The notes under the pieces: model-generated
Told to the model about the DNA's origin: nothing
Seen by the model: only the letters and a program-made list of their open reading frames with translations
Database searches by the model: none
DNA from: Bacteroidota bacterium
GTDB taxonomy: Bacteria > Bacteroidota > Bacteroidia > UKL13-3
DNA: 64,000 bases
Assembly: GCA_040388375.1 (NCBI GenBank)
Contig: JAZKBU010000007.1
Span: 248,823 to 312,822 of the forward strand
Direction of reading: 5' to 3'
Translations under genes and position numbers: made by a program
Shown here: in pieces, positions 16,218-35,469 of the stretch
Layout of the letters: each line of letters starts with the position of its first letter
How positions within the stretch are numbered: the stretch's first letter is position 1

Positions 16218-16712
16218 TTAAGATAAGGTTATCTTTCCATTTTTAATGGTAAAGCTGTACAATTCAACAGTATCAACTGAAATGTTTTTAATTTTTCCGG
16301 CTGTCCAAGTTTTTAGTTCTGTAAATACAGCTACTATTTGGCTGTCCAGTTCTGTACTTTTTGTTTTATTGCTTATCTCACACTTTACAAGTTCGCCTTT
16401 ACAGTTTACAATTAAACTAACCATTCCCTTATCTTCATAATCTGGCTTATCTTTCAGAAAACTCACTTTAGCATTTAACTCCTGTATAATCTCTTCTTTG
16501 GTTTTAGTAGCTTGCGCTTTAACTTGTCCATTACCGGGAATTGGTAAAATAGCAATTACATTGGCATTGTCACAAACACCTTTTATGGGCTCTTTTACTT
16601 CCATTCTGGCAACCATATTATTTATTGAACTGCTTTTGGATGTTGCGCATGAGCTAATAATTCCGATGCTTATTAAGCCAATACAAATTGTTGTTAGTTT
16701 GTGTCTTTTCAT
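16218..16712 (-). CDS. Hypothetical lipoprotein
   Basis: Lipoprotein signal peptide with a lipobox Cys (IGIISSCATS). Confidence 0.5.
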   Translation of the reverse strand: MKRHKLTTICIGLISIGIISSCATSKSSSINNMVARMEVKEPIKGVCDNANVIAILPIPGNGQVKAQATKTKEEIIQELNAKVSFLKDKPDYEDKGMVSLIVNCKGELVKCEISNKTKSTELDSQIVAVFTELKTWTAGKIKNISVDTVELYSFTIKNGKITLS

Positions 16713-16813
16713 TTTTATCTACGGTTGCTGTTAACTTATTTATTAAGTTATATATTTCTCTTATTCGCAAAAGTATTTTATTATTCCACACCTCAAAATA
16801 CTGCGCAAAAAAA

Positions 16814-16837
16814 AAGGTTGGTGAGGACACCAACCTT
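16814..16837. repeat. REP-like perfect hairpin AAGGTTGGTG-AGGA-CACCAACCTT (family copy 1)
   Basis: 10-bp perfect arms downstream of the 16882 gene. The same sequence recurs at 22216-22239 and about 25340-25366; a degenerate copy sits at about 31968-31996. Confidence 0.75.
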
Positions 16838-21984: not shown

Positions 21985-22215
21985 TATTATGTTGTTTTAT
22001 TTATTAAATTAGGTTATCTGCTATTTTATGTTGCAAAATAGCCTATTTCATAACCCCTGTTTACAAAACTTATTCCAATATTATAAGCCACAGAAAAATT
22101 TAATTATTTTTTTATGTATAGGGGTTTTGCTTTTTGAGTAGCAGTTTTACTCCCCGCTTTTTTAAAAGAATATATAAATGAAGGGTTGGTACATATACTG
22201 GCAAGTACGAGTGGA

Positions 22216-22271
22216 AAGGTTGGTGAGGACACCAACCTTGGACAAACTTGTTGGTGAAGAACACCAACAAG
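22216..22271. repeat. Tandem pair of REP-like hairpins (AAGGTTGGTG-AGGA-CACCAACCTT, then CTTGTTGGTG-AAGAA-CACCAACAAG) upstream of the pAgo gene
   Basis: Two adjacent perfect 10-bp-arm palindromes. The second is a sequence variant of the first. Confidence 0.75.
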
Positions 22272-22276
22272 GGCAG

Positions 22277-22303
22277 GAAACGAGCGGATGCTCGCACCAG
22301 CGG
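22277..22303. repeat. Second same-orientation copy of the GAACGAGCGGAYGCTCGCACYAGCGG repeat, 5' of the pAgo gene
   Basis: gaaacgagcggatgctcgcaccagcgg. Together with 18770-18798 it brackets a 3.5-kb segment containing only the SIR2-APAZ-pAgo ORF. Confidence 0.7.
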
Positions 22304-22317
22304 AGTGTTTGTGCAAT

Positions 22318-22353
22318 AAAAAATCCCTTCTATTTTGTAGAAGGGATTTTTTG
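22318..22353 (-). terminator. Bidirectional intrinsic terminator downstream of the 22361..23254 gene
   Basis: aatcccttcta-ttttg-tagaagggatt 11-bp stem with T-tracts on both sides. Confidence 0.7.
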
Positions 22354-22360
22354 TTTGTGG

Positions 22361-23254
22361 TTAGGCTTTGATAAGGCTTACCTGGAGCTGGGTTATTTTA
22401 CCCTGCTCAACAGTGGCTTGAACGCTTTGGGTTATATAGCCGCCTGCTTCTATACGCAGGGTGTACTGGCCTGCGCGCATTTTGGTTATTTCGCATATAC
22501 CTTGCTGGTCGGCTTCATCGGTTTTGGTGCTACCCTCTAAAATGGCTTTGGCAATGGTAAGTGGGTTATTGCTTGCTGCATCTGTTACTTTTATGCTTAC
22601 GCCTGTTTTGCGCACGGCTGCTTCGTTTATGACTTTGGTGGCTATAAGGATGCCGGCAAAAGCGGGGACATTCATTGCATTGACTACTAAATCGGTAATG
22701 ATGGCCAAGCTGGCATCGGCTGCTTTGAAGAGGCTATTGGTTTCGGCTACCATGTTTTTTTTGTTTTTTACAGCGCTTTGTGTAGTACCTAAACTGGTTT
22801 GGAATGCATTTACTAACTGGCGTGCGGCTGTTACATCGGTAGGCTTGATGTTGAGGTCAACCAAATTGCGTGCATTGGTTTCGATGGGTGTTAATACTGC
22901 ATTGGCTTTGGCATAACAGTCGGCATCGGGTAAGCGGGTAAAATCGGTTTTGGTTACATTGAAAAGGGTCATGAGTGGTATGTCTTTTTCATCCTTTGCC
23001 CATACGTAAGCGGCTCTTGCTAGTTTACAAAGGGTTTCGGTCATGGTTAATTTTAGCTGGGTATTGTTATTGGTAATACCTTTTGTGCTTACGCTGAGGC
23101 TGGAATTCAGCTCATCTATGCGTGCTAAGATTTGGTTGAAATGCTGCACCTCGGTGTCTAACCTTGCTAATAAGTTAACGGAGGCTGTGTTGGTTTTTAA
23201 AACTTGCTGTACGGCCTGGTACATGTTAAGTTTTGCAATTGAATTCTTATTCAT
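22361..23254 (-). CDS. Hypothetical protein with a C-terminal carboxypeptidase-regulatory-like beta-sandwich segment
   Basis: C-terminal RAGQYTLRIEAGGYITQSVQATVEQGKIT resembles a CarbopepD_reg-like domain. The rest is helical and uncharacterised. A 780-bp repeat-rich region lies upstream. Confidence 0.45.
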   Translation of the reverse strand: MNKNSIAKLNMYQAVQQVLKTNTASVNLLARLDTEVQHFNQILARIDELNSSLSVSTKGITNNNTQLKLTMTETLCKLARAAYVWAKDEKDIPLMTLFNVTKTDFTRLPDADCYAKANAVLTPIETNARNLVDLNIKPTDVTAARQLVNAFQTSLGTTQSAVKNKKNMVAETNSLFKAADASLAIITDLVVNAMNVPAFAGILIATKVINEAAVRKTGVSIKVTDAASNNPLTIAKAILEGSTKTDEADQQGICEITKMRAGQYTLRIEAGGYITQSVQATVEQGKITQLQVSLIKA

Positions 23255-23424
23255 ACGATTTTTAATTTATTGGTTGTTATAACGTTTTTGATAGCTGTTT
23301 TATTATTTTAAGCTGCTATAAAATGTTTGTTATATGGCTTGTTCAGGGGTATGAATTTGATATGTGGTTTTATTTTATTTTGATTGGCATTGGAAGGAGT
23401 TTGTTTGGGATGTAGAAGCTTATG

Positions 23425-23795
23425 TTTATGCTTTGATGGCATTTGTTTGATTCCCGATATGGTTTGTTTGACTGTTGGTATTGTTTGTTTACTCTTTGAT
23501 TGCCTTTGTTTAAGGTTTGACTGCATTTGTGTCACTTTTGATAGCGTATGGGTTAACTCTTGATTTTGTTTGTTTGACCTTTGATGGCGTATGTTTAACC
23601 TTTGGTTGACTTTGCATCAGGTGCGGCTGAATTTGTGTCACTTTCAATGGCTTATGTTTGACTTTAAAAGTGATTTGTTTGACTCTTGATGGCTTATGTT
23701 TAACCTTTGATGGCATTTGTTTAAGGCTCGACTGAATTTGTGTCATATTGAGCGGCTTATGTTTGACCCTTGATGTGATTTGTTTGGGATTGGGT
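23425..23795. repeat. Degenerate 21-bp tandem repeat array (about 17 units) with a 105-bp (5-unit) higher-order periodicity
   Basis: Units such as ctttgatggcatttgtttaag, ctttgatggcgtatgtttaac and tcttgatggcttatgtttaac. Every fifth unit is the variant ...gactg(c/a)atttgtgtca(c/t). The units are contiguous with no spacers. Confidence 0.8.
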
Positions 23796-23810
23796 GGGGT
23801 TTGCACCGCA

Positions 23811-23880
23811 TTTCATACGGTGTATCTACCGTATTTTATACGGTGTATCTACCGTATTTCATACGGTGTTATTGAAATTA
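23811..23880. promoter_or_regulatory. Two and a half tandem copies of a 23-bp unit carrying the palindrome TACGGT-N6-ACCGTA (operator-like)
   Basis: tttcatacggtgtatctaccgta / ttttatacggtgtatctaccgta / tttcatacggtgtt. 6-bp inverted arms separated by 6 bp, which fits a dimeric HTH binding site. Confidence 0.5.
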
Positions 23881-24032
23881 AATCACTTCGTGATTTTTAT
23901 ATGGGGGTGACTATATATGGAATGGAAATACATAATTATGCCTGGCCCCGTTCTTCTTCTATATCCTCATTGGGCCATTTTACTCGTTTTTCTTCCATGG
24001 TATAATATACTATTTGGTAAGATTGTTCTTAC

Positions 24033-24623
24033 TTATACTTTAATTCTCTTATCACGTGCTTGCATTCCATTTAACGTGCTGTGTATTTTCCTTTGTTTGT
24101 TAATAATATCAACAAGCTCTGCAATATTGCACGCAAGAGCAGTTGAGGAGATACTTAATGGCGTTCCATAAACACGGTAATTCATGTTCATCCAAAATTT
24201 CTTAAACAGGTTTGCATTGTTGATGTATTGGTGTGGATTATTCACATAGATTAATACAAACTTTGTTCGCTTAACGGCTTCTATACGGAGGTGTGTTATG
24301 TCGTCCCATTTTATGGTTTGCCCGCCAATTGCGCTGGAGTTATCGGTTATGCCCATGTGGTTTATTATTATTCCCGGTTTGGTGTCGAATAGTTTTCCAA
24401 AACCTATTATTCCGAACAGTCCGAAAAGAAGGAAATCCATGAGGGCTACTATCCTTACCACAGTTGAATCGTAACGTGCCTGCCTCTCGGCTATGTACCA
24501 CAGCCAAAGTCCGGCAGCTACAAACAATAAAGCCCCGATGGTGAGCAAAACAATTTTAAGCTTGTTTAGCGGTATTTCAATAGAGTCGTTTTTGTTTTGT
24601 ATTAACATAGTACTTTTATCCAT
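24033..24623 (-). CDS. Membrane-anchored protein (two TM helices plus a cytoplasmic PH-like domain?)
   Basis: Hydrophobic N-terminal helices (LLTIGALLFVAAGLWLWYI; FLLFGLFGIIGFG). Promoter copy A lies upstream. Confidence 0.45.
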   Translation of the reverse strand: MDKSTMLIQNKNDSIEIPLNKLKIVLLTIGALLFVAAGLWLWYIAERQARYDSTVVRIVALMDFLLFGLFGIIGFGKLFDTKPGIIINHMGITDNSSAIGGQTIKWDDITHLRIEAVKRTKFVLIYVNNPHQYINNANLFKKFWMNMNYRVYGTPLSISSTALACNIAELVDIINKQRKIHSTLNGMQARDKRIKV

Positions 24624-24677
24624 AGCGCTTAAAAACCAAGCCTGTCAGTGTGCTCCGTATTAAATAAATTAACTTCC

Positions 24678-24731
24678 CTAACAAAAGTATTGGTTTATTT
24701 GATTCAGCAAAATGTTGTCTAAATAAAAAAA
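24678..24731 (-). promoter_or_regulatory. Bacteroidetes-type promoter, copy A of a repeated extended promoter element
   Basis: The minus-strand reading gives TTTTGCTGAATCAAATAAACCAATACTTTTGTTAG, i.e. a -33 TTTG, an 18-nt spacer, and a -7 TACTTTTG (TAnnTTTG). It lies 45-100 nt upstream of the 24623 start. Confidence 0.6.
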
Positions 24732-24778
24732 ATTAGCGATGACACTAACTCTGGACAATACCATAATACATACGTTTA

Positions 24779-25216
24779 TTAAAAGAATTTTCTTGGCCCT
24801 CCTTTGAAGTCCCACGAACTTATTGGGTTAGGGTTATCCATATACCAATTGTCTGTTTGCTTAATGTCAACCAGCCATTCATAAGTATGCGTCCCTACCA
24901 ATTCTGTTTCTAAATGTATGGTAGCACTTGTCCAATAAAGCAGTTTAAGAATAGCTTCAAATTTATTTAACCATTCGGTCCATTCATATTCAACAGACTT
25001 ATAAGAAGCCCCAAATACTATTACCTGGTCTCTATAGGTCCCTTCAATATTATGTGGGTCTTGGCAAAGAAACATATTTCGGTGTATCCATGGAAAGGTA
25101 TCTGTTTCCGGCAGAGCGCTTAAAATTTCTTTATTAAGCCGTTGTAATTTATGGTAATCTTCCGTTTTCCATGTTGCCCCTATTATATTTCCATAAACGA
25201 TTGAAACGTGTCCCAT
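24779..25216 (-). CDS. Hypothetical protein (145 aa), Trp/Tyr-rich
   Basis: ORF with no recognisable motif; promoter copy B lies upstream. Confidence 0.4.
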   Translation of the reverse strand: MGHVSIVYGNIIGATWKTEDYHKLQRLNKEILSALPETDTFPWIHRNMFLCQDPHNIEGTYRDQVIVFGASYKSVEYEWTEWLNKFEAILKLLYWTSATIHLETELVGTHTYEWLVDIKQTDNWYMDNPNPISSWDFKGGPRKFF

Positions 25217-25287
25217 TGAAATTGTTATTTTATATCTATAATAAACTTAAACCAATCACAACTATTATAATCTGGTTCATAATCTTC

Positions 25288-25341
25288 ACTAACAAAAGTA
25301 TTGGTTTATTTGATACAGCAAAATGTTGCCTAAATAAAAAA
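25288..25341 (-). promoter_or_regulatory. Promoter element copy B (about 55 bp, nearly identical to copy A)
   Basis: Same TTTG...TACTTTTG architecture, upstream of the 24779..25216 gene. Confidence 0.6.
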
Positions 25342-25467
25342 GGTTGGTGAGGGAACACCAACCTTGAACAAATTGTATTTAGCCAGGGGCTCATGTATAT
25401 ACTCACTCGCAAGATACCAACATGCAGCAGAAACACCTGTCCATTTGCTTCGCTTGCCCTGCCCTTG

Positions 25468-26403
25468 TTACTCTATTATTGTTATCCCTGTTAAATTTGC
25501 CTGGTTGTTTTTTAAAAAGGCATAGGTAATTTTATCTACTTTACAGTCAATAAACTGTACGCGTTTAAATTTTCCATTATACTTAAAAAAGGTATTTAAA
25601 ATGGTTGCATTCTGAAATGTAACATTATAAAATGTACAGTTTTCAAATTGGCAGTTCTCTAAAGTGCCTTCAAAAACAATATCGCTAATACCTGCATTTT
25701 TAAATGATGTAAATTTCCACACGGCATTTTTCACCACATTACTTTCAAAATTTACTCCGGTAAACTCAGCCCCCGAAAAATTCGTTTCAGAAAAATCGCA
25801 TTTGCCAATATTGCTTTTTAAAAATGTAGCATCTATCAATAAACAATTATTAAACTGGTTATTTAACAAATTAGATGATTGAATTTTGCTGTTTCTAATG
25901 TCTGAAGAGGAGAAATCGCACATTTCAATATTATTGCTTCCAAGAATAAGCCCCGACAAATCAGCGTTTGCAAACTTGCAGTTCTTCATATTGGAAGAGC
26001 TGAATTTTTCCTTTAAGTTCTTTAAGCCTGAAAAGTCAGCGTCAACCCAATTCCCTTTGGACATATCCCAACTCCAATCAAATTTGTTCTTTGCTTTAGC
26101 CTCCGGAATTTCTACTGTTTGGTTGTCAAACTGCTCGTTGGTTGTTGTTGAAATTTCATCAGCCTTAAAACTGTCAGAGAAATAGTTAAGATCAACTCCA
26201 AAAATTTCAGCCAGTCGGTTTAATGTGGTAATGTCGGGCATGGATTCACCACGTTCCCATTTTCCAACTGCTTGTGAACTGATTGATACTTGCTGGGCAA
26301 GTTCTGCTTGTGAAAGATTCGTTTTCTTTCTTGCTGTGGCAATTTTATTGCCAATTGTTTTTGAATTTAGCATCTTATGTTTTTTAAAATTTTGATGCTG
26401 CAA
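25468..26403 (-). CDS. XRE-family HTH domain fused to a pentapeptide-repeat domain
   Basis: HTH segment (NLSQAELAQQVSISSQAVGKWERGESMPDITTLNRLAEIF) followed by many A(D/N)(L/F)xx pentapeptide repeats (ADFSG, ADLSG, CDFSS, ATFLK, CDFSE, AEFTG...). Confidence 0.75.
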   Translation of the reverse strand: MQHQNFKKHKMLNSKTIGNKIATARKKTNLSQAELAQQVSISSQAVGKWERGESMPDITTLNRLAEIFGVDLNYFSDSFKADEISTTTNEQFDNQTVEIPEAKAKNKFDWSWDMSKGNWVDADFSGLKNLKEKFSSSNMKNCKFANADLSGLILGSNNIEMCDFSSSDIRNSKIQSSNLLNNQFNNCLLIDATFLKSNIGKCDFSETNFSGAEFTGVNFESNVVKNAVWKFTSFKNAGISDIVFEGTLENCQFENCTFYNVTFQNATILNTFFKYNGKFKRVQFIDCKVDKITYAFLKNNQANLTGITIIE

Positions 26404-26520
26404 AGCTATTTCTACCTGTTGCCATCATGCAAATAAAGCCCGCTACTTACTGTTGTAATTGCACTACTTATAGTTGTTTTTTGACAACCATTAGTAGTAT
26501 GACGGAGTTTTGGTAGCGTA

Positions 26521-26556
26521 TTAACAAAAGTATTGGATTATTTGACACTGCAAAAC
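26521..26556 (-). promoter_or_regulatory. Promoter element copy C
   Basis: ttaacaaaagtattggattatttgacactgcaaaa, upstream of the HTH-pentapeptide gene. Confidence 0.5.
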
Positions 26557-26642
26557 AACTTTCTCCTGTCCACGGTAACGTCTCCCGACTAACCGCTCGT
26601 ATTTTGCAAGTGAGTATTTTTAATGCTGAACAAGGAATTTAT

Positions 26643-27101
26643 TTAGTCTTTTTTTATCAAAATATAAAATACCTGCCTTACCATCGTTATTACAAATAAT
26701 ACTATCCAGGTAAAATAGCCCAATATCGCAACGATTACGACACCTTTATAGACGGACGAAACAATACTATCGTCAAGAGGTTGGTTTGGCATAAATGTTT
26801 CTAGAAACGGCAATGAAACCAAAGTAAACAATAAGGGCATTAATAACATTAAATGAATCAATATAGTCTTGTCGGTAATGGTAGATTTTTTGTTTTGCTT
26901 AATAACCCGAAACAATTGGCCCAATAAAAAAATGATAGCGGCTAAAATGAAAATGAAATCCGATACTAAAAATTGATGATTGAAATTTCGAAAGCGTGAG
27001 CCCATGTCCGTGTCCACAAGAAATAACTTTGTTACTATACCAATTACTAAAATAACCAATGCGGTATAAGTATATATTGAAATACGTTTGTAATTGATCA
27101 T
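26643..27101 (-). CDS. Hypothetical integral membrane protein (about 4 TM helices)
   Basis: Multiple hydrophobic helices; no motifs. Confidence 0.45.
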   Translation of the reverse strand: MINYKRISIYTYTALVILVIGIVTKLFLVDTDMGSRFRNFNHQFLVSDFIFILAAIIFLLGQLFRVIKQNKKSTITDKTILIHLMLLMPLLFTLVSLPFLETFMPNQPLDDSIVSSVYKGVVIVAILGYFTWIVLFVITMVRQVFYILIKKD

Positions 27102-27233
27102 ACTATTTTGTTGTTAAGGTTTTAGGCTTGGCAAGGTAAGAGAAATTATGCTCAGCCGGAAACTTAGCTAACTATATACTCACTCGCAAGATGCGAACGG
27201 ATGCGAATAGCACAAAGGTGTACCCTGTTTTTT

Positions 27234-27875
27234 TTAATGATACCATTGTCCGGTAGCTTGCGAAGTCCACTCCCCTTTTTCTTTTTCAAATAGAATTGTC
27301 CAACCCGTTCCACAAAGTCCGGGACATAAATTTCTAATCATCATTACAACCTTTTTCTTGTCTTGCGAAAAAACAGGGACAGAGAAAACATACCAGTTCT
27401 TGCGATTATTAAGGTTAAAGCCTAATCGCGAATTGTCCCAACTAAATATTTTAAGTCTGGCTTTTTGTTCTAGCATAAATTTGATGTCTGGTTTAGTCAG
27501 GCACTTGTTAAGTTGTGATGAACTAATTGTACTAGTAGTATTTACCCAGTTGCCAGTATCAACTTGTATGTCTTCCTTTTTATTGTCAATAAGCATTGTA
27601 TTTAAAAATGTCTGATCATCTTGCGACAAATCAAAATTAGGTTGCGGCTCAAGTGTCAGTCCATAATTTAAATCTAATTTTTGGTCAGCAATAACAACTT
27701 TCATAAAGTTATAAATGGCTTGATTGGAAGTATCAGGCTCACTAATTAAATGCTCAATATGATCTTTAGTTGTTGTGTCAGTATAAAGTTTCGCTTCGGT
27801 AACAGGCTTATTTTCTGACTGCCCGCAACCTAAAAGTGAAATAGATACTATTGGTATATAAATTAGTTTTTTCAT
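27234..27875 (-). CDS. Hypothetical lipoprotein
   Basis: Internal start MKKLIYIPIVSISLLGCGQS (lipobox). The upstream extension of the tracked ORF is a translated REP-like repeat. Confidence 0.5.
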   Translation of the reverse strand: MKKLIYIPIVSISLLGCGQSENKPVTEAKLYTDTTTKDHIEHLISEPDTSNQAIYNFMKVVIADQKLDLNYGLTLEPQPNFDLSQDDQTFLNTMLIDNKKEDIQVDTGNWVNTTSTISSSQLNKCLTKPDIKFMLEQKARLKIFSWDNSRLGFNLNNRKNWYVFSVPVFSQDKKKVVMMIRNLCPGLCGTGWTILFEKEKGEWTSQATGQWYH

Positions 27876-28089
27876 TGTCCTATTGGCCTCCTTACTGGTT
27901 TGAGCGTCCGCTCGTTCCTTTATATATAACCAAGGCAATGTACCGAATGTTGAATAGATTGCCCCAACTCTTTACCCCCTTTAAGTGTAAATTATGTATT
28001 TTTTTTCACAAGTTATGTAAGGCTTTGTTGTACTTCCATAAGTACGTTTGTGTTTGCAAAGTAACAATTTACGATTAAAAACAAACACT

Positions 28090-28926
28090 ATGGAAACAGC
28101 AACTAAAGGATACAATTTAACTATTCCGGTAAATAACGTTCAGTTATCTTACAATGATATTGGAGAAGGAAGCATTCCTGTTATATTCATGCACGGTTAT
28201 CCTTTCGATAAAACGATGTGGCAGCTTCAACTTGATTTTTTAAAATCCGGCTACCGTTTAATCTCTTTTGACATTAGAGGATTTGGAAAATCAACAGACG
28301 AGGAATCACACCTGAGCATTGATTTGTTTGCGGAGGATTTAATAGCGCTGATGGATAAGCTGAACATTGATAAAGCAATTGTTTGTGGATTATCTATGGG
28401 TGGTTTCATAGCACTCAATGCACAAAAAAGATTCCCTGATCGCTTTGCAGCATTAATTTTATGCGATACACAATGTATTGCCGATACAGCCGAAGTAAAA
28501 GAAAAACGCAATAAGATTATTAATGAAATAGCCGTTGATGGCGTTGCTCCTTTTAATGAAGGATTTATAAAAAGTGTTTTCCATAAAGATTCATTAAGCA
28601 ATAAAAAGGAATTGGTTGAGCTGTTACGCAGTGTTGTGTTTGCTAATTCACCACATATTATTACAATGGGGCAAACTGCTTTGGCTGAACGTTCAGAAAC
28701 CTGCTCTACTTTGAACGAGATAACTATTCCAACATTGATTATTTGCGGCCGTGAAGATATAGTAACACCTCTTGCTCAATCTGAAATGATGCATAACGCC
28801 ATTAAAGGGTCAATACTGCATGTTATTGACAATGCGGGGCATGTATCTAATCTGGAGCAACCTGATGAATTCAACAAACATCTGCTAGATTTCTTAACTA
28901 CTTTGAGTGCTGATGGCAGACCTTAA
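28090..28926 (+). CDS. Alpha/beta-fold hydrolase
   Basis: HGYPFD start, nucleophile elbow GLSMGG, and an acid/His region (DNAGH). Confidence 0.8.
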   Translation: METATKGYNLTIPVNNVQLSYNDIGEGSIPVIFMHGYPFDKTMWQLQLDFLKSGYRLISFDIRGFGKSTDEESHLSIDLFAEDLIALMDKLNIDKAIVCGLSMGGFIALNAQKRFPDRFAALILCDTQCIADTAEVKEKRNKIINEIAVDGVAPFNEGFIKSVFHKDSLSNKKELVELLRSVVFANSPHIITMGQTALAERSETCSTLNEITIPTLIICGREDIVTPLAQSEMMHNAIKGSILHVIDNAGHVSNLEQPDEFNKHLLDFLTTLSADGRP

Positions 28927-28933
28927 AAGGCAA

Positions 28934-29425
28934 TTACCTTAATTCATACTCTACTTCATTGTCACCCAAAGTAGCCACTTTTATAAAGTGAAGCCTTTCC
29001 ATAAGCTTCATGGCTGCTGCATTATGTTGGCTTGTTATAGCCCAAATACGTTTTAAGCCTATATCATGTAGTCCAAACTCAATGGCTAATAACATAGCAG
29101 CAGTCATATAACCTTGCCCGCGGTATTGCGGTAATAAAACACAACCCAGTTCGCCCTCCCCTTTGTTTAGCCCTCTGTAGTAGCCACAAGTCCCTACTAT
29201 TTTATTTGTTAATTTATCTGCAATGCCCCAATGTATGGAGTTGCCATCAACATAATCATTGTTTATTTTAGCTTGCATGGCTGCAGCCTCTTGCACCGTT
29301 TTAGCCTGCACAGCATCGTAAAACGAAATCTCCACAAGGTCTTGCATGTCCTCCGTAATGATTTGCCGTAATACAATGTTATCACCTGTAATAGTAGGAA
29401 AAATGGAATATGGCGGTAGATTCAT
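28934..29425 (-). CDS. GNAT family N-acetyltransferase
   Basis: RGQGYMTAAMLLAIEFG motif. Confidence 0.75.
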   Translation of the reverse strand: MNLPPYSIFPTITGDNIVLRQIITEDMQDLVEISFYDAVQAKTVQEAAAMQAKINNDYVDGNSIHWGIADKLTNKIVGTCGYYRGLNKGEGELGCVLLPQYRGQGYMTAAMLLAIEFGLHDIGLKRIWAITSQHNAAAMKLMERLHFIKVATLGDNEVEYELR

Positions 29426-29454
29426 TTTGTTTGTTATTGTCTATTTATTAGAAA

Positions 29455-30180
29455 TCAGTCACCAAAAAATCTTAATCCTTCTATTGGTGTATCGTAGGTG
29501 TGATTCTCTTTTAACCTAAGCCAGCCAACAAGTCCAAATTCGGTTTTAACTAAAAAAAACTTCTCTGAATTGTCAGTACCCGGGTCGCAAAGCAGTACCT
29601 CAACATCATAGTCTTTAGGAATGGAAGCAATCACTTCATTACCTGTCTTTGCTTTATACAATGTTAAAGCAGCAGTGGTTTTGCTTTTTAGTCCAACATA
29701 ATAAAATGATTGCCGAATTTCTAATAAAGTATCTGGTAAAAGTTGAAACTTTCTTCTCTTGTTAAACATATTATTGGTATGTCCTGCCGTGTATATAATG
29801 TTGTTTTCCATGACATACAATTCCAGCGCATTAATACTTCCAATTACTCTTCCACTCTTCTTTGCTATAATAAATTCAAAATCATCACTTGGCCCCGTAT
29901 CAAAAAGAATATCCAGTGTATCTGTTATTTGTTTATTATGTATTTGTGTCAGCTTTGTAATAGTTTCCGGATCGCCATCGCCACAATACCAATAATCTGT
30001 TTTGGGTAAACGGGAGCATTTTACATTTAGTAGTTTAATTGATTTGGCATCATACCCAAAAATGAATTCTTTACGAGCCGTATCTATATATATTTTCTTT
30101 AAGTTAGGAAAGTATGCGGGTTTCTGTCCGTAGGAGTAATAGCATGTTAATATAAAAAGGGTAGTAATAATGTTCTTCAT
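29455..30180 (-). CDS. Hypothetical secreted protein
   Basis: Signal peptide (IITTLFILTCYYSYGQ); promoter copy D lies upstream. Confidence 0.5.
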   Translation of the reverse strand: MKNIITTLFILTCYYSYGQKPAYFPNLKKIYIDTARKEFIFGYDAKSIKLLNVKCSRLPKTDYWYCGDGDPETITKLTQIHNKQITDTLDILFDTGPSDDFEFIIAKKSGRVIGSINALELYVMENNIIYTAGHTNNMFNKRRKFQLLPDTLLEIRQSFYYVGLKSKTTAALTLYKAKTGNEVIASIPKDYDVEVLLCDPGTDNSEKFFLVKTEFGLVGWLRLKENHTYDTPIEGLRFFGD

Positions 30181-30208
30181 ATCGGGGTCGAATAACCTGT
30201 TCTTTGTA

Positions 30209-30245
30209 TTAACAAAAATATTGTATTATTTGACACCACAAAAGA
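30209..30245 (-). promoter_or_regulatory. Promoter element copy D
   Basis: ttaacaaaaatattgtattatttgacaccacaaaa, about 30 nt upstream of the 30180 start. Confidence 0.5.
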
Positions 30246-30316
30246 TTTCATGCCTGCTACATTGCTGGTGTGAGCGTTCCGCTCCTTCCTTTTCGCCAAT
30301 GTTGGCGTCCTATTTA

Positions 30317-30523
30317 CTATTGCTTATTATTTTTCATTTTGTTAAACCACAGGTAAAGCGACCAAACTACCGTGATTCCGAAAACGATAAGCACAGCAAT
30401 ATAGTAAGTGCGGAAAAAGTCGTGAAAGTATGCTCCAACTAACACGTATGCCGATGCCATGCAAATTTTTAACAAAGCAAATTCAGCATTGGACCAGCTT
30501 GTTTTTATTTTTAAGAAATTCAT
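30317..30523 (-). CDS. Small two-helix membrane protein (about 68 aa), uncertain
   Basis: Hydrophobic ORF whose 5' end would overlap the globin gene in the tracked ORF. It was trimmed to an internal Met to remove the overlap; that is a guess. Confidence 0.3.
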   Translation of the reverse strand: MNFLKIKTSWSNAEFALLKICMASAYVLVGAYFHDFFRTYYIAVLIVFGITVVWSLYLWFNKMKNNKQ

Positions 30524-30537
30524 ATTGCTTTTTAGTT

Positions 30538-31011
30538 TTAGTCTGTAATGTAAGGCCCTCCTGTTTCGCCCCAACCCCACTTGGGCATTGGTTCATTTGT
30601 GAGCATTGGATTTTCGCTTAATTGTGAATTTATAACAGCGAGTCGTGTACCCCACTCAATATAACCAACAAATGCTGACCGGAATTCGGGGTCGCTTTTA
30701 AGCCCTACTTCATCAGCTGTTTGTAATAGCAAATGAACCCAACGCTGTCTCATTTCTTCAGTGAGCATTTTGCCTATATGATGCCCAACCATACTTGCGT
30801 GGCTTCCTTTGTCGTGGGTGGTATATAGTTTATCGCCACCAAATACTTCCGCTACAAAATGCGAAACGTGCTTAACATGCTCTGACGACATATTTTTAAA
30901 TATTTCGCCAAGCAAATTGTCTTTTAATACCTTGTCGTAAAACTTCGTAAACAGGGTTTCGAAGGTTTGCATATCGCCAGCCCATTCGTATAATGTTGGA
31001 ATATTTTTCAT
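30538..31011 (-). CDS. Group II truncated hemoglobin (trHbO-like)
   Basis: 2-on-2 globin pattern: YEWAGD...FY.KV..D..L..IF, proximal His region HFVAEVFGGDKLY, and Trp in the distal site region (RWVHLLLQTADEVG). Confidence 0.7.
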   Translation of the reverse strand: MKNIPTLYEWAGDMQTFETLFTKFYDKVLKDNLLGEIFKNMSSEHVKHVSHFVAEVFGGDKLYTTHDKGSHASMVGHHIGKMLTEEMRQRWVHLLLQTADEVGLKSDPEFRSAFVGYIEWGTRLAVINSQLSENPMLTNEPMPKWGWGETGGPYITD

Positions 31012-31050
31012 TATTTTTATGTCGGTTTATAGTATTTAGGTTAATACTGT

Positions 31051-31518
31051 TTATTGCTTACTGGTCACATAATGGGCTAACTTTTCTAATGACTGCTCTG
31101 TACCCGCTTCATTGTCTTTTGGGTTGATACCTGTTGGAATATTCTTAAAAACAATGGTCACTTTTGTAGCGTTACTTTCGTGTTCTTCTAAAAATACTTC
31201 CATCAGCATTTCGCCTGCAAACTCGTTTTTGTCTGACAAAAAATGAATAGACTGAACAATTTTTTCATAAGGATTGAGCTCAACAAACTTTGCTGAAAAA
31301 CGATCTTCATTTGCCGCTGTTTTGCCTTCAGTTTCGCCATCCAAGTAAAATAGCGACATACTATATCCTCCTCCAACTTTCAGGTCAAAGTCATGTATTT
31401 TACCTTTCATATCTGTAGGTGCAAGCCAAAATTCCAAAGCACTCTTATTGGTGAAGGCATTGTAAATTTGCTGCTTTGTAGCCCGGATTACTTTTGTATT
31501 TTTTGTTGTTGATACCAT
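31051..31518 (-). CDS. SRPBCC/AHSA1-like domain protein
   Basis: Length and an alternating-strand pattern typical of Activator-of-Hsp90-ATPase-homolog-like (SRPBCC) proteins. Confidence 0.6.
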   Translation of the reverse strand: MVSTTKNTKVIRATKQQIYNAFTNKSALEFWLAPTDMKGKIHDFDLKVGGGYSMSLFYLDGETEGKTAANEDRFSAKFVELNPYEKIVQSIHFLSDKNEFAGEMLMEVFLEEHESNATKVTIVFKNIPTGINPKDNEAGTEQSLEKLAHYVTSKQ

Positions 31519-31532
31519 CTGCTTTATTCCTG

Positions 31533-31898
31533 CTATGAGCCACGCAATATCTTCTCCATCTTCCTACCCTTTGCCAATTCATCTACCAGCTTATCTAAAT
31601 ACCTTACCTGCTGCGTTAAAGTATTGGTAATATCTTCCACACGGTAACCACATATTACACCCGTAATAAGCTGCGCATTTTTATTAATAGTAGCCTGCTT
31701 AAAGAATTGTTCGAACGTTGCTTTTTTATTAATCAGGTCTTGTAGTTGCTTATTATTAAAACCCGTTAACCATGTTATCACTTCATGTAGCTCTTCTTTT
31801 GTCCTTCCCTTCTTCTCTACTTTTGTCAGGTATAATGGATAAACTGAAGCAAATATCATTTTTGCCATACGCTCATCATGTGTTGCGGTTGTGTTCAT
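31533..31898 (-). CDS. DUF2200 domain protein
   Basis: Conserved DUF2200-like sequence (MIFASVYPLYLTKVEKKGRTKEELHEVITWLTGF). Promoter copy E lies upstream. Confidence 0.6.
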   Translation of the reverse strand: MNTTATHDERMAKMIFASVYPLYLTKVEKKGRTKEELHEVITWLTGFNNKQLQDLINKKATFEQFFKQATINKNAQLITGVICGYRVEDITNTLTQQVRYLDKLVDELAKGRKMEKILRGS

Positions 31899-31914
31899 AG
31901 CTTATTTTACTTCT

Positions 31915-31955
31915 ACTAACAAAAGTATTGGATTATTTGAAATCACAAAAACTTT
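31915..31955 (-). promoter_or_regulatory. Promoter element copy E
   Basis: ctaacaaaagtattggattatttgaaatcacaaaaa, immediately upstream of the DUF2200 gene. Confidence 0.5.
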
Positions 31956-32050
31956 TCATGCTTACTCACCTAAGGTTGGTGAGGACATCAGCCTTGGGCA
32001 AACATTCAGGAACATACCCTGCGTTTGTTACTATCGACCAAACTTCAGTT

Positions 32051-32314
32051 TTAGTGCGTTAAAGATGTATATATCAGTAAAAGAACCAAGCCCATGAAGC
32101 CGGCAATAAGAAATGAAGCAGTAAAGGCCCATTTGTTCTTTTTCTTATAAAAGTAAATGGCTGCAATAGCACTTACAAGGCCAACCACTACCATGAATCC
32201 AAGTATTTGTAATAATGTTTTAACTGCTCCCATTTGGTCGGCAAATGCCAATGCAGGTAAGGCGAGTATCGTTAGTAGTGCTACTATTTTTTTCTTGTTG
32301 TATTGGTTTAGCAT
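32051..32314 (-). CDS. Small membrane protein (about 87 aa)
   Basis: Internal start MLNQYNKKKIVALLTILALPALAFA with two TM helices. The tracked ORF's 5' extension covers a REP-like repeat. Confidence 0.4.
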   Translation of the reverse strand: MLNQYNKKKIVALLTILALPALAFADQMGAVKTLLQILGFMVVVGLVSAIAAIYFYKKKNKWAFTASFLIAGFMGLVLLLIYTSLTH

Positions 32315-32463
32315 AGCGGGGGTATATTTGTTTATCGCTACCTCACAAATGTTATGCCAACGCTTGTTTATTATCCGCTGCTGGTGCGAGCGTCCCGCTC
32401 GTTCCCTAAAATGCAAACACTGCACTTGGACAATATTCTTAAAAAAGTTTATCATTGCATGGT

Positions 32464-33444
32464 ATGCAACAAAGCAATTCTATTTATAAACTAACTGCAC
32501 TGTGGGCCTTTACCGAATGTAGCCTGGGTGGCTTAATGCACCTATTTAAAATACCTTTTACCGGGTTTTTTGTAGGTGGCTTTGCCGTTATTATGATTGG
32601 ATTAATTGCTTACTTCAGTAAACAAAACTTCCGAACCATTTTACAAGCTACTATATTGGTAATATTGGTAAAAGCTGCCGTTAGCCCCCAATCGCCACCA
32701 CCCGCTTACTTTGCCGTATTATTCCAGGGCTTTTTTGGTGCTGTTATATTTGGAGGCATGGGCTTTAACAGGTTTAGTGCTATGCTGTTTGGTGCAGTTG
32801 CCATGGTTGAATCGAGCCTGCAAATGATTATAAGCAAAACTATATTTTATGGCATGGACTTTTGGAAAGCCATTGATTTATTATTTCAAAACATTTTAAA
32901 AGACTTTGGCTTGAGCACTACCCTTTCGTTTAGCTTTTGGTTGATATTTTTATACGTATTGTTATATGCCCTTTGGGGTTTACTGCTTGGCTTTTGGTGC
33001 AGTCAATTACCTTTTAAACTAACGGATAAATGGGAGTTGATTACACCCCGATTACAGGCAATACATAACACAGCCATACCAACGCCCAAACAAGGCCCTT
33101 ACCGAAAGCTAAAATGGTTAGGCGTAGTTTTTACCTTATTGTTTATTATAACTGTTTTATTGATGAATGGTGAACAGATAGGCAAAGCGTGGTTTATTGT
33201 TTTGCGTACCATTCTGGTTGTTTCTATATTGTATTTTGTAGTAGCACCTCTTATTCAATATATCATTAAAAGATTTTCGGCCGACAGGCAAACACAAATA
33301 AATGCCATAGTAAATGACCTGCCCGCCATTAAACAAACTGCTTTACTGGCTTATACATTGGCAAGCGAAAACAAAAAAGGATTGGCTAAATACCGCGAGT
33401 TTGTTTGGATACTGATTACTTTAACCCTCTACCATGAAGACTAA
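32464..33444 (+). CDS. Integral membrane protein of unknown function, translationally coupled to the mobA-like gene
   Basis: About 8 hydrophobic helices. Its stop overlaps the next gene's start (33434..33444). Confidence 0.5.
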   Translation: MQQSNSIYKLTALWAFTECSLGGLMHLFKIPFTGFFVGGFAVIMIGLIAYFSKQNFRTILQATILVILVKAAVSPQSPPPAYFAVLFQGFFGAVIFGGMGFNRFSAMLFGAVAMVESSLQMIISKTIFYGMDFWKAIDLLFQNILKDFGLSTTLSFSFWLIFLYVLLYALWGLLLGFWCSQLPFKLTDKWELITPRLQAIHNTAIPTPKQGPYRKLKWLGVVFTLLFIITVLLMNGEQIGKAWFIVLRTILVVSILYFVVAPLIQYIIKRFSADRQTQINAIVNDLPAIKQTALLAYTLASENKKGLAKYREFVWILITLTLYHED

Positions 33445-34513
33445 TATTTATATAGTAAGCAAGGCTATACAAACGGGTAAAACAACGGCTCTTCTTCAGT
33501 GGTGTAAAGAACAAAGCAATGTAGCCGGTGTATTAACACCTGATGTAGATGGTAGCCGCAAACTATATGATATTAAGCAAAAGCAAACCTTTGATTTTGA
33601 AACCAAGGAGACCTTGCCTGCAAATGAAATTACACCCATTGGTCGCTTTCATTTTTTAACCGAAGGTTTTAAGCAGGCACAACAAATAATACATGCCGGT
33701 GTTGGCAGCGAGTATTTGGTCATTGATGAAATTGGCCGCTTGGAGTTAAACGAAGGCAAAGGATTAGAACCAAGCTTAGGGCAGGTTATAAAGCAATATG
33801 TTTCAAAAGCAGTAAGTGGTAATTTGGTATTGGTTATCCGCGATTATTTATTGGAAGCTTGTATGGAGAAATATAGTTTATACGATGCACAAATTATTCA
33901 ATCACCGGAAGAAATAAACAAGCAAAATGAATTGATTGGTTTGGTATTATGCGGAGGCAAAAGCACCCGTATGCATACCGATAAAGCTTTTATAAACTAT
34001 CACGAAAAGGAACAGGTTTATTATTTAGCTGACAAAATGAGGCTACTTTGTTCATCAGTTTTTATTGCTTGCAATGCTACCCAAAAAGAAAAGATAAGCG
34101 AGCACTACAAAACGATTTGCGATAGTGCGACTTTTGAAAACACAGGACCTATAGCTGCCATTCTAACCGCATTAGCGCACTATCCTACCCATTCGTTTCT
34201 AGTACTAGCTTGTGACTATCCACTGCTTACTTTAACTGATATTTTAAAACTTAAAAGTGCATTTCTAAGCACGCAAAAATCGGTTTCGTTTTATAATGAT
34301 GAAACTGGTTTCAGGGAACCTTTATTGGCTATTTACCATGCGCATGATTTGCAAAAACTGTTATCGTTTTATGAAACTGGAAATACCAGCTTACAGCATT
34401 TTTTAAATGAAATAGATGCGGTAAAAGTAAAGCCAACTGATTTAAAGGCTATAAAAAGTATTGATACCAAACTGGAGTTTGATGAAATAAAATCCTTAAT
34501 TACGCATAACTGA
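33434..34513 (+). CDS. Fusion of a DUF2478/THEP1-like P-loop NTPase with molybdenum cofactor guanylyltransferase (MobA-like)
   Basis: Walker A-like IQTGKTT and Walker B-like LVIDEIG in the N-terminal half. MobA signature LVLCGGKSTRMHTDKA and a LACDYPLLT segment in the C-terminal half. Confidence 0.7.
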   Translation: MKTNIYIVSKAIQTGKTTALLQWCKEQSNVAGVLTPDVDGSRKLYDIKQKQTFDFETKETLPANEITPIGRFHFLTEGFKQAQQIIHAGVGSEYLVIDEIGRLELNEGKGLEPSLGQVIKQYVSKAVSGNLVLVIRDYLLEACMEKYSLYDAQIIQSPEEINKQNELIGLVLCGGKSTRMHTDKAFINYHEKEQVYYLADKMRLLCSSVFIACNATQKEKISEHYKTICDSATFENTGPIAAILTALAHYPTHSFLVLACDYPLLTLTDILKLKSAFLSTQKSVSFYNDETGFREPLLAIYHAHDLQKLLSFYETGNTSLQHFLNEIDAVKVKPTDLKAIKSIDTKLEFDEIKSLITHN

Positions 34514-34515
34514 TT

Positions 34516-35370
34516 ATGACTAAACCTGCCGTTGCTCCTGCCCAAATTGTAAAAGTAAACAACCATGAATTTTTGCAAACCAATGATTTACTGGCGGTGG
34601 AAGAGCCTTTGGAAATACGTATTGGCTATGGACTTAAAACGCAGCGCGAGCAACGCAATATTTCAGTAACCATGCGCACACCCGGCCACGATTTTGAACT
34701 GGCTTTGGGTTTTTTGTTTACAGAAGGCATTATAGAAAGTAGCCAGCAAATTGCACAGATAAGGTATTGTACTGAGTTAAATACACAGGAGAATAATGAA
34801 AACATTGTAAGGGTTGAGCTGCACGAAGATGTAGTTATAGATTTTAGTAAACTGCAACGTAACTTCTACACTACTTCCAGTTGTGGTGTGTGTGGCAAAG
34901 CCAGTATTGATGCCATTAAAACCGTTTGCCAAAACCAAAATCCGGTATCCGATTTTAAGGTACATGAATCCATTATTTTATCGCTACCCGACCAGTTAAG
35001 AGCGCAACAAAATGTATTTGAATATACAGGAGGTTTACATGCTTGTGCTTTGTTTGATGTAAAGGGAACTATTAAACTGTTGCGTGAAGACGTAGGCCGC
35101 CACAATGCATTAGATAAGCTAATTGGTGCTATAGTGGGGCAAACCAATACAGAAAATTTGTTTGTGGATACTGTTTTGTTGCTCAGTGGCAGGGCTAGTT
35201 TTGAATTAATACAAAAAGCAGCTATGGCCGGTATACCCGTTATTTGCGCAGTAGGTGCGCCCAGCAGCTTAGCCGTAGCAACGGCAAAAGAATTTGGTAT
35301 CACCTTAATTGGCTTTTTAAGAGATAAACGATTTAATATTTATACGAACGAACAAAGAATTTCGTTTTAG
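34516..35370 (+). CDS. fdhD: FdhD sulfurtransferase (formate dehydrogenase accessory protein family)
   Basis: FdhD signature Cys loop (SSCGVCGKASID) and a C-terminal GRASFELIQKAAMAGIPV region. It starts 3 nt after the mobA-like stop. Confidence 0.85.
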   Translation: MTKPAVAPAQIVKVNNHEFLQTNDLLAVEEPLEIRIGYGLKTQREQRNISVTMRTPGHDFELALGFLFTEGIIESSQQIAQIRYCTELNTQENNENIVRVELHEDVVIDFSKLQRNFYTTSSCGVCGKASIDAIKTVCQNQNPVSDFKVHESIILSLPDQLRAQQNVFEYTGGLHACALFDVKGTIKLLREDVGRHNALDKLIGAIVGQTNTENLFVDTVLLLSGRASFELIQKAAMAGIPVICAVGAPSSLAVATAKEFGITLIGFLRDKRFNIYTNEQRISF

Positions 35371-35401
35371 TATTACTTGGACATAATTAGATTTTATTAA
35401 C

Positions 35402-35445: not shown

Positions 35446-35469
35446 TTAAAGTAGCTTACTACTTTTAGT

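What the first reader, a model, noticed from the sequence alone, without database searches (positions are those of the whole stretch)
24678..31955. Five near-identical copies of an extended Bacteroidetes promoter drive a set of small accessory genes
An element occurs five times: A at 24678, B at 25288, C at 26521, D at 30209 and E at 31915. Each time it lies 10-150 nt upstream of a minus-strand gene. The plus-strand form is (c)TAACAAAAGTATTGG(A/T)TTATTTGA(C/T)AC..CAAAA. Read on the coding strand it gives TTTG, then an 18-nt spacer, then TACTTTTG, which matches the Bacteroidetes sigma-A consensus (TTTG...TAnnTTTG). What is unusual is that the whole spacer, CAAATAA(A/T)CCAATA, is conserved as well as the boxes. 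Copies A and B are about 55 bp with only 2 mismatches. The genes driven are a PH-like membrane protein, a 145-aa unknown, an HTH-pentapeptide regulator, a secreted unknown and a DUF2200 protein. This points to a co-regulated module that may be stress- or envelope-related (a truncated hemoglobin, an SRPBCC protein, hydrolases and GNATs are interspersed), or to a mobile promoter spread by recombination.
Basis: partly seen in the sequence, partly recalled or inferred. Interest (0 to 1): 0.5.

Follow-up and report, generated by a model that had tools for sequence, protein, structure and literature searches.

The report
Repeated portable promoter in accessory-gene array
A 34-base promoter-like sequence is copied in front of five (plus one decayed sixth) unrelated gene units inside a fast-changing accessory-gene stretch of an uncultured Bacteroidota genome, and sister genomes carry the same sequence in front of yet other genes, so it looks like a reusable promoter module rather than a new kind of system.

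Summary
Five copies of TAACAAAAGTATTGGWTTATTTGA-N5-CAAAA lie at 24679, 25290, 26522, 30210 and 31917 (0.06 expected by chance). A decayed sixth copy is at 16765. All sit 18-148 nt upstream of co-oriented minus-strand transcription units with unrelated genes. On the coding strand the module reads TTTTG-N5-TCAAATAA-WNNRA-TAYTTTTG-TTA. That is a full match to the Bacteroidota primary-sigma consensus. Similarity starts at the -33 box and stops where the transcription start is predicted. Nothing comparable occurs in the other ~47 kb of the window, which holds housekeeping genes, so within this window it does not behave as a generic promoter. Two ~97%-identical genomes keep all the copies, and one has an extra copy before another unrelated gene. 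Two ~80-88%-identical genomes each have one copy, 30/31 identical to each other, with unrelated flanks and unrelated downstream genes. Changes between orthologous copies cluster in the N5 block; the TCAAATAA box hardly varies. Best reading: a lineage-specific propagated promoter module, often paired with an upstream terminator hairpin, that expresses units of a hypervariable accessory/defence array and may also carry an operator. Integron attC, inverton, structured RNA and neutral duplication were tested and not supported. Transcription and the genome-wide copy number remain untested.

The parts
24679..24712 (-). Promoter module copy A (TTTTGCTGAATCAAATAAACCAATACTTTTGTTA), 55 nt (or 70 nt) upstream of the 196/191-aa gene
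25290..25323 (-). Promoter module copy B, 73 nt upstream of the 145-aa gene
26522..26555 (-). Promoter module copy C, 148 nt upstream of the HTH_3-pentapeptide gene
30210..30243 (-). Promoter module copy D (2 variant positions), 29 nt upstream of the 241-aa gene. It is the only copy with an ortholog in the more distant genome L014.
31917..31950 (-). Promoter module copy E, 18 nt upstream of the DUF2200 gene
16765..16798 (-). Diverged family member F (TTTTGAGGTGTGGAATAATAAAATACTTTTGCGA), 52 nt upstream of the 164-aa gene. It keeps both sigma boxes but has TGGAATAA in place of TCAAATAA.
22061..22098 (-). More diverged family member H, upstream of the SIR2-pAgo gene. In the relative L023 the matching site reads TTTTGTGGTGTGGGATAATGGGGTAATTTTGTTA, and homology with the window stops right after its -7 box.
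25340..25365 (-). 10-bp hairpin followed by a T-run (terminator-like), about 16 nt upstream of module B
16814..16837 (-). Hairpin of the same family plus a T-run, upstream of F
24729..24752 (-). Diverged hairpin plus T-run upstream of A. The stem is kept through changes on both arms.
31972..31995 (-). Decayed copy of the hairpin upstream of E (2 mismatches, no T-run)
30317..31898 (-). Unit headed by E: DUF2200, AHSA1/SRPBCC, bacterial globin and a 68-aa protein (gaps of 14, 39 and 14 nt)
28934..30180 (-). Unit headed by D: the 241-aa signal-peptide protein and a GNAT acetyltransferase (29-nt gap)
25468..26373 (-). Gene headed by C: HTH_3 plus pentapeptide-repeat protein
24779..25216 (-). Gene headed by B: 145-aa protein with no family hit
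24033..24623 (-). Gene headed by A: 196-aa (or 191-aa) protein with no significant family hit
16218..16712 (-). Gene headed by F: 164-aa protein with no significant family hit

Best explanation
The element is a lineage-specific family of about 34-bp primary-sigma (Bacteroidota sigma-A type) promoter modules. These modules have been propagated to the heads of several unrelated transcription units inside one hypervariable accessory/defence gene array.

Each copy supplies a TTTG -33 box and a TAYTTTTG -7 box, so RNA polymerase should start 1-2 nt past the conserved TTA. In three copies a conserved hairpin plus T-run just upstream terminates the preceding unit, so each junction is a terminator-promoter insulator.

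Shown: the copies exist and far exceed chance; they match the consensus; they sit upstream of, and co-oriented with, non-homologous genes; similarity is bounded by the -33 box and the predicted start; sister genomes carry the same module in other contexts; and changes avoid all of the module except a 5-nt block.

Inferred: that the copies fire as promoters; that they spread by recombination (copying of the module, or replacement of genes on either side of a retained module); and that the invariant TCAAATAA box at about -25 to -18 is a functional contact for a shared regulator or for polymerase, which would make the units co-expressed.
For: 1. Five copies against 0.06 expected, scoring 47-52 bits against 16 bits or less for everything else in the window except the decayed copy F.

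2. Six of the 14 full TTTG-N17-20-TAnnTTTG matches in the 64 kb belong to this family, where 3.7 matches are expected in all. The consensus and the -12 to -5 position of the box are taken from PMC7366714 and PMC9723704. The -33 box is reported as needed for full activity (PMC2483708).

3. Every copy lies 18-148 nt upstream of a co-oriented start codon at the head of a unit. None lies inside the tightly packed operons.

4. In the multiple alignment, similarity begins at TTTTG and ends at TTA; leaders and upstream flanks do not align.

5. The downstream genes are not homologous to one another.

6. The hairpins upstream of B and F are the two best terminator-like sites in the region. A's hairpin keeps its stem through paired changes.

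7. Relatives. GCA_040384145.1 (L013/L023) and GCA_040384025.1 (L015), both ~97% identical, keep A-E, and L023 also keeps F. L015 adds copy G before an unrelated 136-aa gene. L014 and L019 share genes at 72-88% nucleotide identity (most blocks 77-88%) but share the module at 30/31. In those two genomes both flanks are non-homologous and the downstream genes differ: 241 aa in L014, 171 aa in L019.

8. Of 6 mismatches between orthologous copies in the window, L013 and L015, 5 fall in the 5-nt block after TTTTG and 1 in TCAAATAA.

9. There is no copy in the ~47 kb outside the array, which includes GMP synthase, glutamate dehydrogenase and polyprenyl synthetase.
Against: There is no transcript or start-site evidence; the organism is known only from metagenome assemblies. 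The copy number elsewhere in the genome is unknown. The exact core was absent from the GTDB representative genomes, JGI metagenomes, IMG/VR and the plasmid collection, because this lineage is not in them. No mobilising mechanism is visible: no transposase, integrase, terminal inverted repeats or target duplications. All array genes share one strand, so the co-orientation of the copies is partly confounded. Gene gains and losses seen between strains do not use the module. The invariant spacer box has no known role in sigma-A promoters.
Confidence: 0.7

Rival explanations
1. The conserved block is mainly a regulator's operator that overlaps an ordinary promoter. One transcription factor binds TCAAATAA (or the weak dyad TTTG-N6-CAAA), and the copies define a small regulon, for example a stress response. 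This overlaps with the best explanation and does not exclude it.
For: The TCAAATAA box is as invariant as the sigma boxes, while the 5 nt next to it are hypervariable. The module is better conserved (30/31) than neighbouring coding DNA (72-88%) between L014 and L019. The gene content is typical of detoxification and stress sets: globin, SRPBCC, GNAT and DUF2200 here, DinB, glyoxalase, YceI and HxlR in relatives. An HTH_3 protein in the array is itself preceded by copy C.
Against: There is no convincing dyad; only 4-bp arms are present. No regulator gene is shared by all arrays that carry the module: HTH-pentapeptide in the window clade, cNMP-binding and HxlR proteins in L014 and L019. F and H keep both sigma boxes but have replaced the TCAAATAA box. 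No expression data exist.
Confidence: 0.3
2. The modules are recombination sites that delimit exchangeable gene cassettes, making an integron-like capture array. The promoter likeness would then be secondary.
For: The array is hypervariable between relatives and lies next to a conserved divergent anchor gene. Homology breaks exactly at the module edges in L014 versus L019. It also breaks right after the -7 box of member H, where a SIR2-pAgo gene in the window is replaced by a TIR/ORC-like block in L023. The 3' edge of that swap sits next to a REP-like repeat.
Against: No integrase or other recombinase was detected by Pfam among the ORFs screened in and around the array; the anchor protein has no recombinase domain. 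RYYYAAC...GTTRRRY pairs occur at chance level and only inside genes (6 found against 4.7 +/- 3.3 in shuffles). The module has no palindromic partner or stable fold. Units between modules hold 1-5 genes. Observed gene indels occur at junctions without modules, through short A/T-rich repeats.
Confidence: 0.1
3. The copies are a selfish or neutral short intergenic repeat (REP/MITE-like, or leftovers of recent local duplication) and only resemble a promoter by chance in A/T-rich DNA.
For: The same array holds other short repeat families: the hairpin family and the REP-like family GAACGAGCGGACGCTCGCACCAG. A and B share 72 nt, which looks like a recent duplication or gene conversion.
Against: Both sigma boxes are invariant in all strong copies, at fixed spacing. 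Changes are confined to one 5-nt block. The module is conserved at 30/31 across genomes whose genes are 72-88% identical. Every copy lies upstream of a start codon and none lies 3' of a convergent gene or inside a gene. There are no terminal inverted repeats and no palindrome.
Confidence: 0.08

Closest known systems
Putative mobile promoters (PMPs; Matus-Garcia, Nijveen and van Passel, NAR 2012, PMC3488235)
   Same: Homologous upstream sequences lie in front of non-homologous genes within one genome. Some families are shared between genomes. There is no IS element or riboswitch. The proposed role is expression of newly arrived or rewired genes.
   Different: The PMP screen required at least 50 nt at 80% identity or better. 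Only the A/B pair (72 nt, 88%) passes. The family core here is just 31-34 nt, coincides with the -35 to +1 footprint, and is clustered in one hypervariable array instead of being dispersed.
Bacteroidota primary-sigma promoters (-33 TTTG / -7 TAnnTTTG; PMC7366714, PMC9723704, PMC2483708)
   Same: Both boxes and their spacing match. TAAAA-type translation signals lie near several of the start codons.
   Different: Ordinary promoters share only the boxes. Here about 13 further spacer positions, including TCAAATAA, are also invariant, and the copies are related by descent.
Integron cassette arrays (attC sites, Pc promoter); comparison from my own knowledge
   Same: An array of mostly co-oriented small accessory genes of varied or unknown function, with repeated sequences between units, next to a conserved divergent gene, and with content that varies between relatives.
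   Different: There is no IntI and no attC core sites or bulged hairpin. The repeats are promoters at the 5' end of units, not recombination sites at the 3' end of each ORF. Units hold several genes.
Promoter-carrying small repeats and IS-borne outward promoters (for example Neisseria Correia elements, or Bacteroides IS elements activating cfiA/cepA); comparison from my own knowledge
   Same: Repeated DNA supplies a ready-made promoter to whatever gene lies downstream.
   Different: There are no terminal inverted repeats, target duplications or transposase. The module is far shorter than a MITE or an IS end.

Membership tests
Bacteroidota sigma-A type promoter | -7 box TAnnTTTG | tested here: met
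   TACTTTTG or TATTTTTG is present in all five copies and in F.
Bacteroidota sigma-A type promoter | -33 TTTG at the appropriate distance upstream | tested here: met
   TTTG lies 18 nt before the -7 box in every copy.
Bacteroidota sigma-A type promoter | Lies upstream of, and co-oriented with, the first gene of a transcription unit | tested here: met
   Copies lie 18-148 nt upstream of start codons and none lies within an operon. The same holds for the copies in L013, L014, L015, L019 and L023.
Bacteroidota sigma-A type promoter | A mapped transcription start about 5 nt after the box, and activity that depends on the boxes | not testable with these tools
   No RNA data are available and the organism is uncultured. 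The only indirect hint is that similarity ends 3 nt after the box.
Putative mobile promoter (PMC3488235) | Homologous upstream regions before non-homologous downstream CDSs | tested here: met
   BLASTP finds no similarity between the downstream proteins, and their Pfam content differs.
Putative mobile promoter (PMC3488235) | Alignment of at least 50 nt at 80% identity or better | tested here: inconclusive
   Met by A/B (72 nt, 88%). The other pairs share only 34-38 nt.
Putative mobile promoter (PMC3488235) | Not an IS element, riboswitch or whole-gene duplication | tested here: met
   No Rfam hit at gathering thresholds. No transposase domains in the Pfam-screened ORFs of at least 100 aa. The genes are not duplicated.
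Integron attC / cassette array | Adjacent IntI tyrosine recombinase | tested here: not met
   No Phage_integrase hit among the ORFs screened in and around the array. The divergent 326-aa anchor protein has no recombinase domain.
Integron attC / cassette array | R''(RYYYAAC)...R'(GTTRRRY) imperfect palindrome 3' of each ORF | tested here: not met
   6 such pairs are found, all inside genes, against 4.7 +/- 3.3 in shuffles. The module does not fold.
Invertible promoter (inverton) | Promoter flanked by short inverted repeats, with a nearby invertase | tested here: not met
   No inverted-repeat pair brackets any copy. No recombinase was found. Orientation is the same in all the genomes examined.
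REP / MITE-type repeat | Palindromic body or terminal inverted repeats | tested here: not met
   The 34-nt module stays unpaired in the centroid folds. Only the separate upstream hairpin is structured.

The most novel reading that the evidence does not exclude
The promoter modules, the terminator hairpins and the REP-like repeats together form the fixed junctions of a promoter-anchored gene-exchange array in an uncultured Chitinophagales-like lineage. Unrelated genes, including whole defence systems (SIR2-pAgo in one strain, a TIR/ORC-like block in another), would be swapped in precisely between a retained promoter (break right after the -7 box) and a retained 3' repeat. This would work without any integrase, as a functional analogue of an integron that uses short conserved expression signals as its recombination arms.
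Probability: 0.12. Interest if true: 0.65.

Novelty: new member of a known kind. Interest (0 to 1): 0.33.

Why it matters
If the modules are active, they show how a Bacteroidota genome gives newly acquired or shuffled accessory and defence genes an immediate, uniform expression signal. They also add a compact (31-34 bp) natural promoter with a defined extra box, which could be tested as a part for genetic tools in Chitinophagales or Flavobacteria. The extra invariant box is a concrete, testable addition to the two-box model of sigma-A promoters in this phylum. The finding does not reveal a new class of system.

Tried and rejected
- **Public-collection scans.** I scanned GTDB representative genomes, JGI metagenomes, IMG/VR and plasmids. 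Only chance hits turned up, several with clearly protein-coding flanks (e.g. one beginning ATGGCT...), none preceded by TAAC. A genome-wide or cross-phylum count was therefore not possible this way.
- **Rfam and tRNA scans.** Nothing was found.
- **Integron reading.** No integrase and no attC core-site pairs above chance.
- **Structured RNA or DNA reading.** The module is unpaired; only the upstream hairpins fold.
- **Proteobacterial-type sigma-70 promoter scan.** The count was no higher than in shuffles: 72 sites against 66 +/- 9.
- **Gene-plus-promoter duplication.** Rejected, because the downstream proteins are unrelated.
- **TCAAATAA as a general feature of this genome's promoters.** Only one weak extra case was found, at 37096-37129.
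- **Module-mediated strain indels.** The 2-gene indel between the 241-aa gene and the GNAT lies at short A/T-rich direct repeats, not at a module.
- **Module always travelling with the 241-aa gene.** It does not: a 73%-identical homolog in L016-L018 lacks it.


Full report
**Observation.** AAAAGTATTGGWTTATTTGA with up to 3 mismatches hits 24683, 25294, 26526, 30214 and 31921, all on the + strand. The expectation is 0.06, and no shuffle of 100 reaches 5. As 34-nt modules they span 24679-24712 (A), 25290-25323 (B), 26522-26555 (C), 30210-30243 (D) and 31917-31950 (E). A weight matrix scores them 47-52 bits. The next best site is a decayed sixth member, F, at 16765-16798 (24.7 bits; 39 bits once relatives are added to the matrix). 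After that comes one 16-bit site at 37096-37129, and then chance level. A and B differ at 2 of their first 53 nt and are 88% identical over 72 nt.

**Anatomy.** On the coding (minus) strand the module reads TTTTG-N5-TCAAATAA-W-NN-RA-TAYTTTTG-TTA.
- TTTG followed 18 nt later by TAnnTTTG is the published consensus of the Bacteroidota primary sigma factor (PMC7366714).
- In Flavobacterium psychrophilum the TAnnTTTG box occupies -12 to -5 (PMC9723704). On that basis the start would fall 1-2 nt after the conserved TTA.
- The -33 box is reported as dispensable but needed for full activity (PMC2483708).
- Full matches to TTTG-N17-20-TAnnTTTG are rare here: 14 in 64 kb, with 3.7 expected. Six of them are this family.
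- In a multiple alignment with long flanks, similarity begins at TTTTG and ends at TTA. Leaders and upstream flanks do not align, apart from a hairpin described below.
- The module-to-ATG distances are 55 (or 70), 73, 148, 29, 18 and 52 nt.

**Gene context.** Window positions 15.2-32.5 kb are a run of small, mostly minus-strand accessory genes. The run sits between core genes: an aminotransferase, polyprenyl synthetase and glutamate dehydrogenase on one side, and a 326-aa protein, a MobA-like protein and FdhD on the other.
- Intergenic distances show that E heads a four-gene unit (DUF2200, AHSA1/SRPBCC, globin, a 68-aa protein). D heads a two-gene unit (a 241-aa protein with a signal-peptide-like N-terminus (my reading of the sequence, not run through a predictor), then a GNAT).
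- C, B, A and F head single genes: HTH_3-pentapeptide, 145 aa, 196 aa and 164 aa.
- The proteins are unrelated to one another.
- No module lies inside an operon or a gene.
- Outside the array, about 47 kb that includes GMP synthase and other housekeeping genes has no copy.

**Junction structure.** About 16-25 nt upstream of A, B, E and F lies a second conserved element, AAGGTTGGTG-loop-CACCAACCTT.
- In B and F it is a perfect 10-bp stem followed by a T-run. These are the two best terminator-like sites in the region.
- A keeps the stem through changes on both arms and keeps the T-run. E's copy is decayed.
- The module itself stays unpaired in the centroid folds.
- These junctions therefore look like terminator-then-promoter insulators between independent units.

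**Relatives.** The lineage is absent from the GTDB representatives, the JGI metagenomes, IMG/VR and the plasmid set. Exact-core scans of those collections gave only chance hits. Protein look-ups did find it.
- A Logan contig is identical to window 22246-37248.
- Two NCBI MAGs labelled Bacteroidota bacterium are ~96-97% identical and syntenic: GCA_040384145.1 (L013, L023) and GCA_040384025.1 (L015).
- Both MAGs keep A-E, and L023 keeps F. L015 has an additional copy G (17749-17782), 86 nt upstream of a 136-aa gene unrelated to any window gene tested.
- Two more distant genomes, L014 and L019, share the anchor gene at 90% protein identity and flanking DNA at ~80-86%. At the same place they carry arrays of largely different small genes: DinB, glyoxalase, YceI, DoxX, HxlR and a cNMP-binding protein.
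- Each of these two genomes has one copy. In L014 it precedes the ortholog of the 241-aa gene, which is 82% identical in protein. In L019 it precedes an unrelated 171-aa gene.
- L014 and L019 share genes at 72-88% nucleotide identity (most blocks 77-88%), yet the module is 30/31 identical. The sequences on both sides of it are unrelated.
- A genome with a 73%-identical anchor (L020) and a 73%-identical homolog of the 241-aa gene in another context (L016-L018) lack the module.

**Constraint.** Between the orthologous copies in the window, L013 and L015 there are six mismatches.
- Five lie in the 5-nt block right after TTTTG and one lies in TCAAATAA.
- If the six mismatches reflect five independent changes (the D substitution being shared by L013 and L015), four of them fall in 5 of 34 positions. 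By my own binomial estimate that has a probability of about 2e-3.
- Across paralogs the same block is nearly saturated with differences, while TTTTG, TCAAATAA and TAYTTTTG-TTA do not vary.
- So the conserved spacer is not just recent common descent. A third box at about -25 to -18 is under constraint.
- Its role is unknown. It forms only a 4-bp dyad with the -33 box (TTTG-N6-CAAA). F and a still more diverged member H carry TGGRATAA instead.

**How it most likely works.** Shown: a family of homologous, consensus-quality promoter sequences sits at the heads of unrelated units. The family is bounded by the -33 box and the predicted start, is constrained as a whole, and is portable between gene contexts within and between genomes. 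Inferred:
- the copies are active sigma-A promoters;
- they arose by copying of the module, or by replacement of DNA on either side of a retained module;
- they give accessory genes in this variable array a common and perhaps commonly regulated expression signal.

This is what Matus-Garcia et al. called putative mobile promoters (PMC3488235). Only A/B meets their threshold of 50 nt at 80% identity. The other copies share the concept but not the length criterion.

**Rivals.**
- A shared operator or regulon is compatible with the data and partly favoured by the invariant box. It lacks a dyad, a common regulator gene, or expression data.
- An integron-like recombination site is not supported. There is no integrase and no attC core pairs above chance. 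The module does not fold. Units hold several genes. The strain-level indels I could examine use short A/T-rich repeats, not modules.
- One observation keeps a weaker cassette-junction idea alive. Where the window has a SIR2-APAZ-pAgo gene (PADLOC pAgo model, 1552 bits), L023 has a TIR_2 plus ORC/CDC6-like block. Homology stops right after the -7 box of family member H and resumes next to a REP-like repeat.
- A neutral or selfish repeat is contradicted by the pattern of substitutions, the cross-species conservation and the strict placement upstream of genes.

**Verdict.** The promoter interpretation is well supported at the sequence level but has not been tested experimentally. The element is a new, lineage-restricted member of a known kind. 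Its two mildly unusual features are a minimal module that coincides with the polymerase footprint and a constrained extra box. Interest is modest.

Noticed in passing
window 18826-21984 (-): The 1052-aa protein is a SIR2-APAZ-short-pAgo fusion (PADLOC pAgo model, 1552 bits, full length). In the ~97%-identical genome GCA_040384145.1 the same slot holds a TIR_2 protein, a 46-aa ORF, an ORC/CDC6-like ATPase and two small genes instead. The array therefore contains a defence-system swap site.
   Followed up: partly
window 23380-23905 (+ orientation): About 20 tandem 21-nt units (with a 105-nt super-unit) carry TTTG / TAtgTTTG-like boxes. They are followed by three 23-nt units, each a perfect 7-bp palindrome ACCGTATnnnATACGGT. 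Relatives L015 and L014 have a short, unexpanded version in the opposite orientation relative to the array genes; in L015 it abuts extra promoter copy G. No flanking inverted repeats were found. The function is unknown; it could be a tandem promoter or operator array, or iterons.
   Followed up: partly
window 15275-15297, 18771-18793, 22278-22300, 27895-27917 (inverted), about 30265-30290: A REP-like repeat, GAACGAGCGGACGCTCGCACCAG (core palindrome CGAGCG-NN-CGCTCG), occurs only in the array, mostly just 3' of genes. The same family follows four successive small genes in L014 (18917, 19240, 19581, 20104) and occurs in L023.
   Followed up: partly
window 22215-22246 and 16813-16844: The 32-nt hairpin repeat is identical at these two sites. 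At 22240-22275 it is followed by a second, similar hairpin (CTTGTTGGTG..CACCAACAAG). The public Logan contig of this strain ends at 22246, within this repeat.
   Followed up: no
window 23936-23995: A remnant of the first ~20 codons of a 185-aa gene that is intact in L015 (17035-17592). The window and L013 have a deletion here.
   Followed up: partly
window 37096-37129 (-): Upstream of the 534-aa gene lies ATTTGATAATTCAAATAAAAGAGTATTATTGTTT. It has the same layout as the module (TTTG-N5-TCAAATAA-N5-TAnnTTG) at 16 bits and is conserved in L013 and L015. It may be a distant relative of the module outside the array.
   Followed up: no
window 22100-22200 (-): An ~100-150-nt stretch upstream of promoter member H (…TTTTAAAAAAGCGGGGAGTAAAACTGCTACTCAAAAAGCAAAACCCC…) is conserved in L023 and also in the distant L014, where it precedes different genes. 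There is no Rfam hit and its role is unknown.
   Followed up: no
window 47814-49157 (-): An MvaI/BcnI-family restriction endonuclease domain (Pfam E = 2e-46). The overlapping 410-aa ORF at 49087-50319 was not examined.
   Followed up: no
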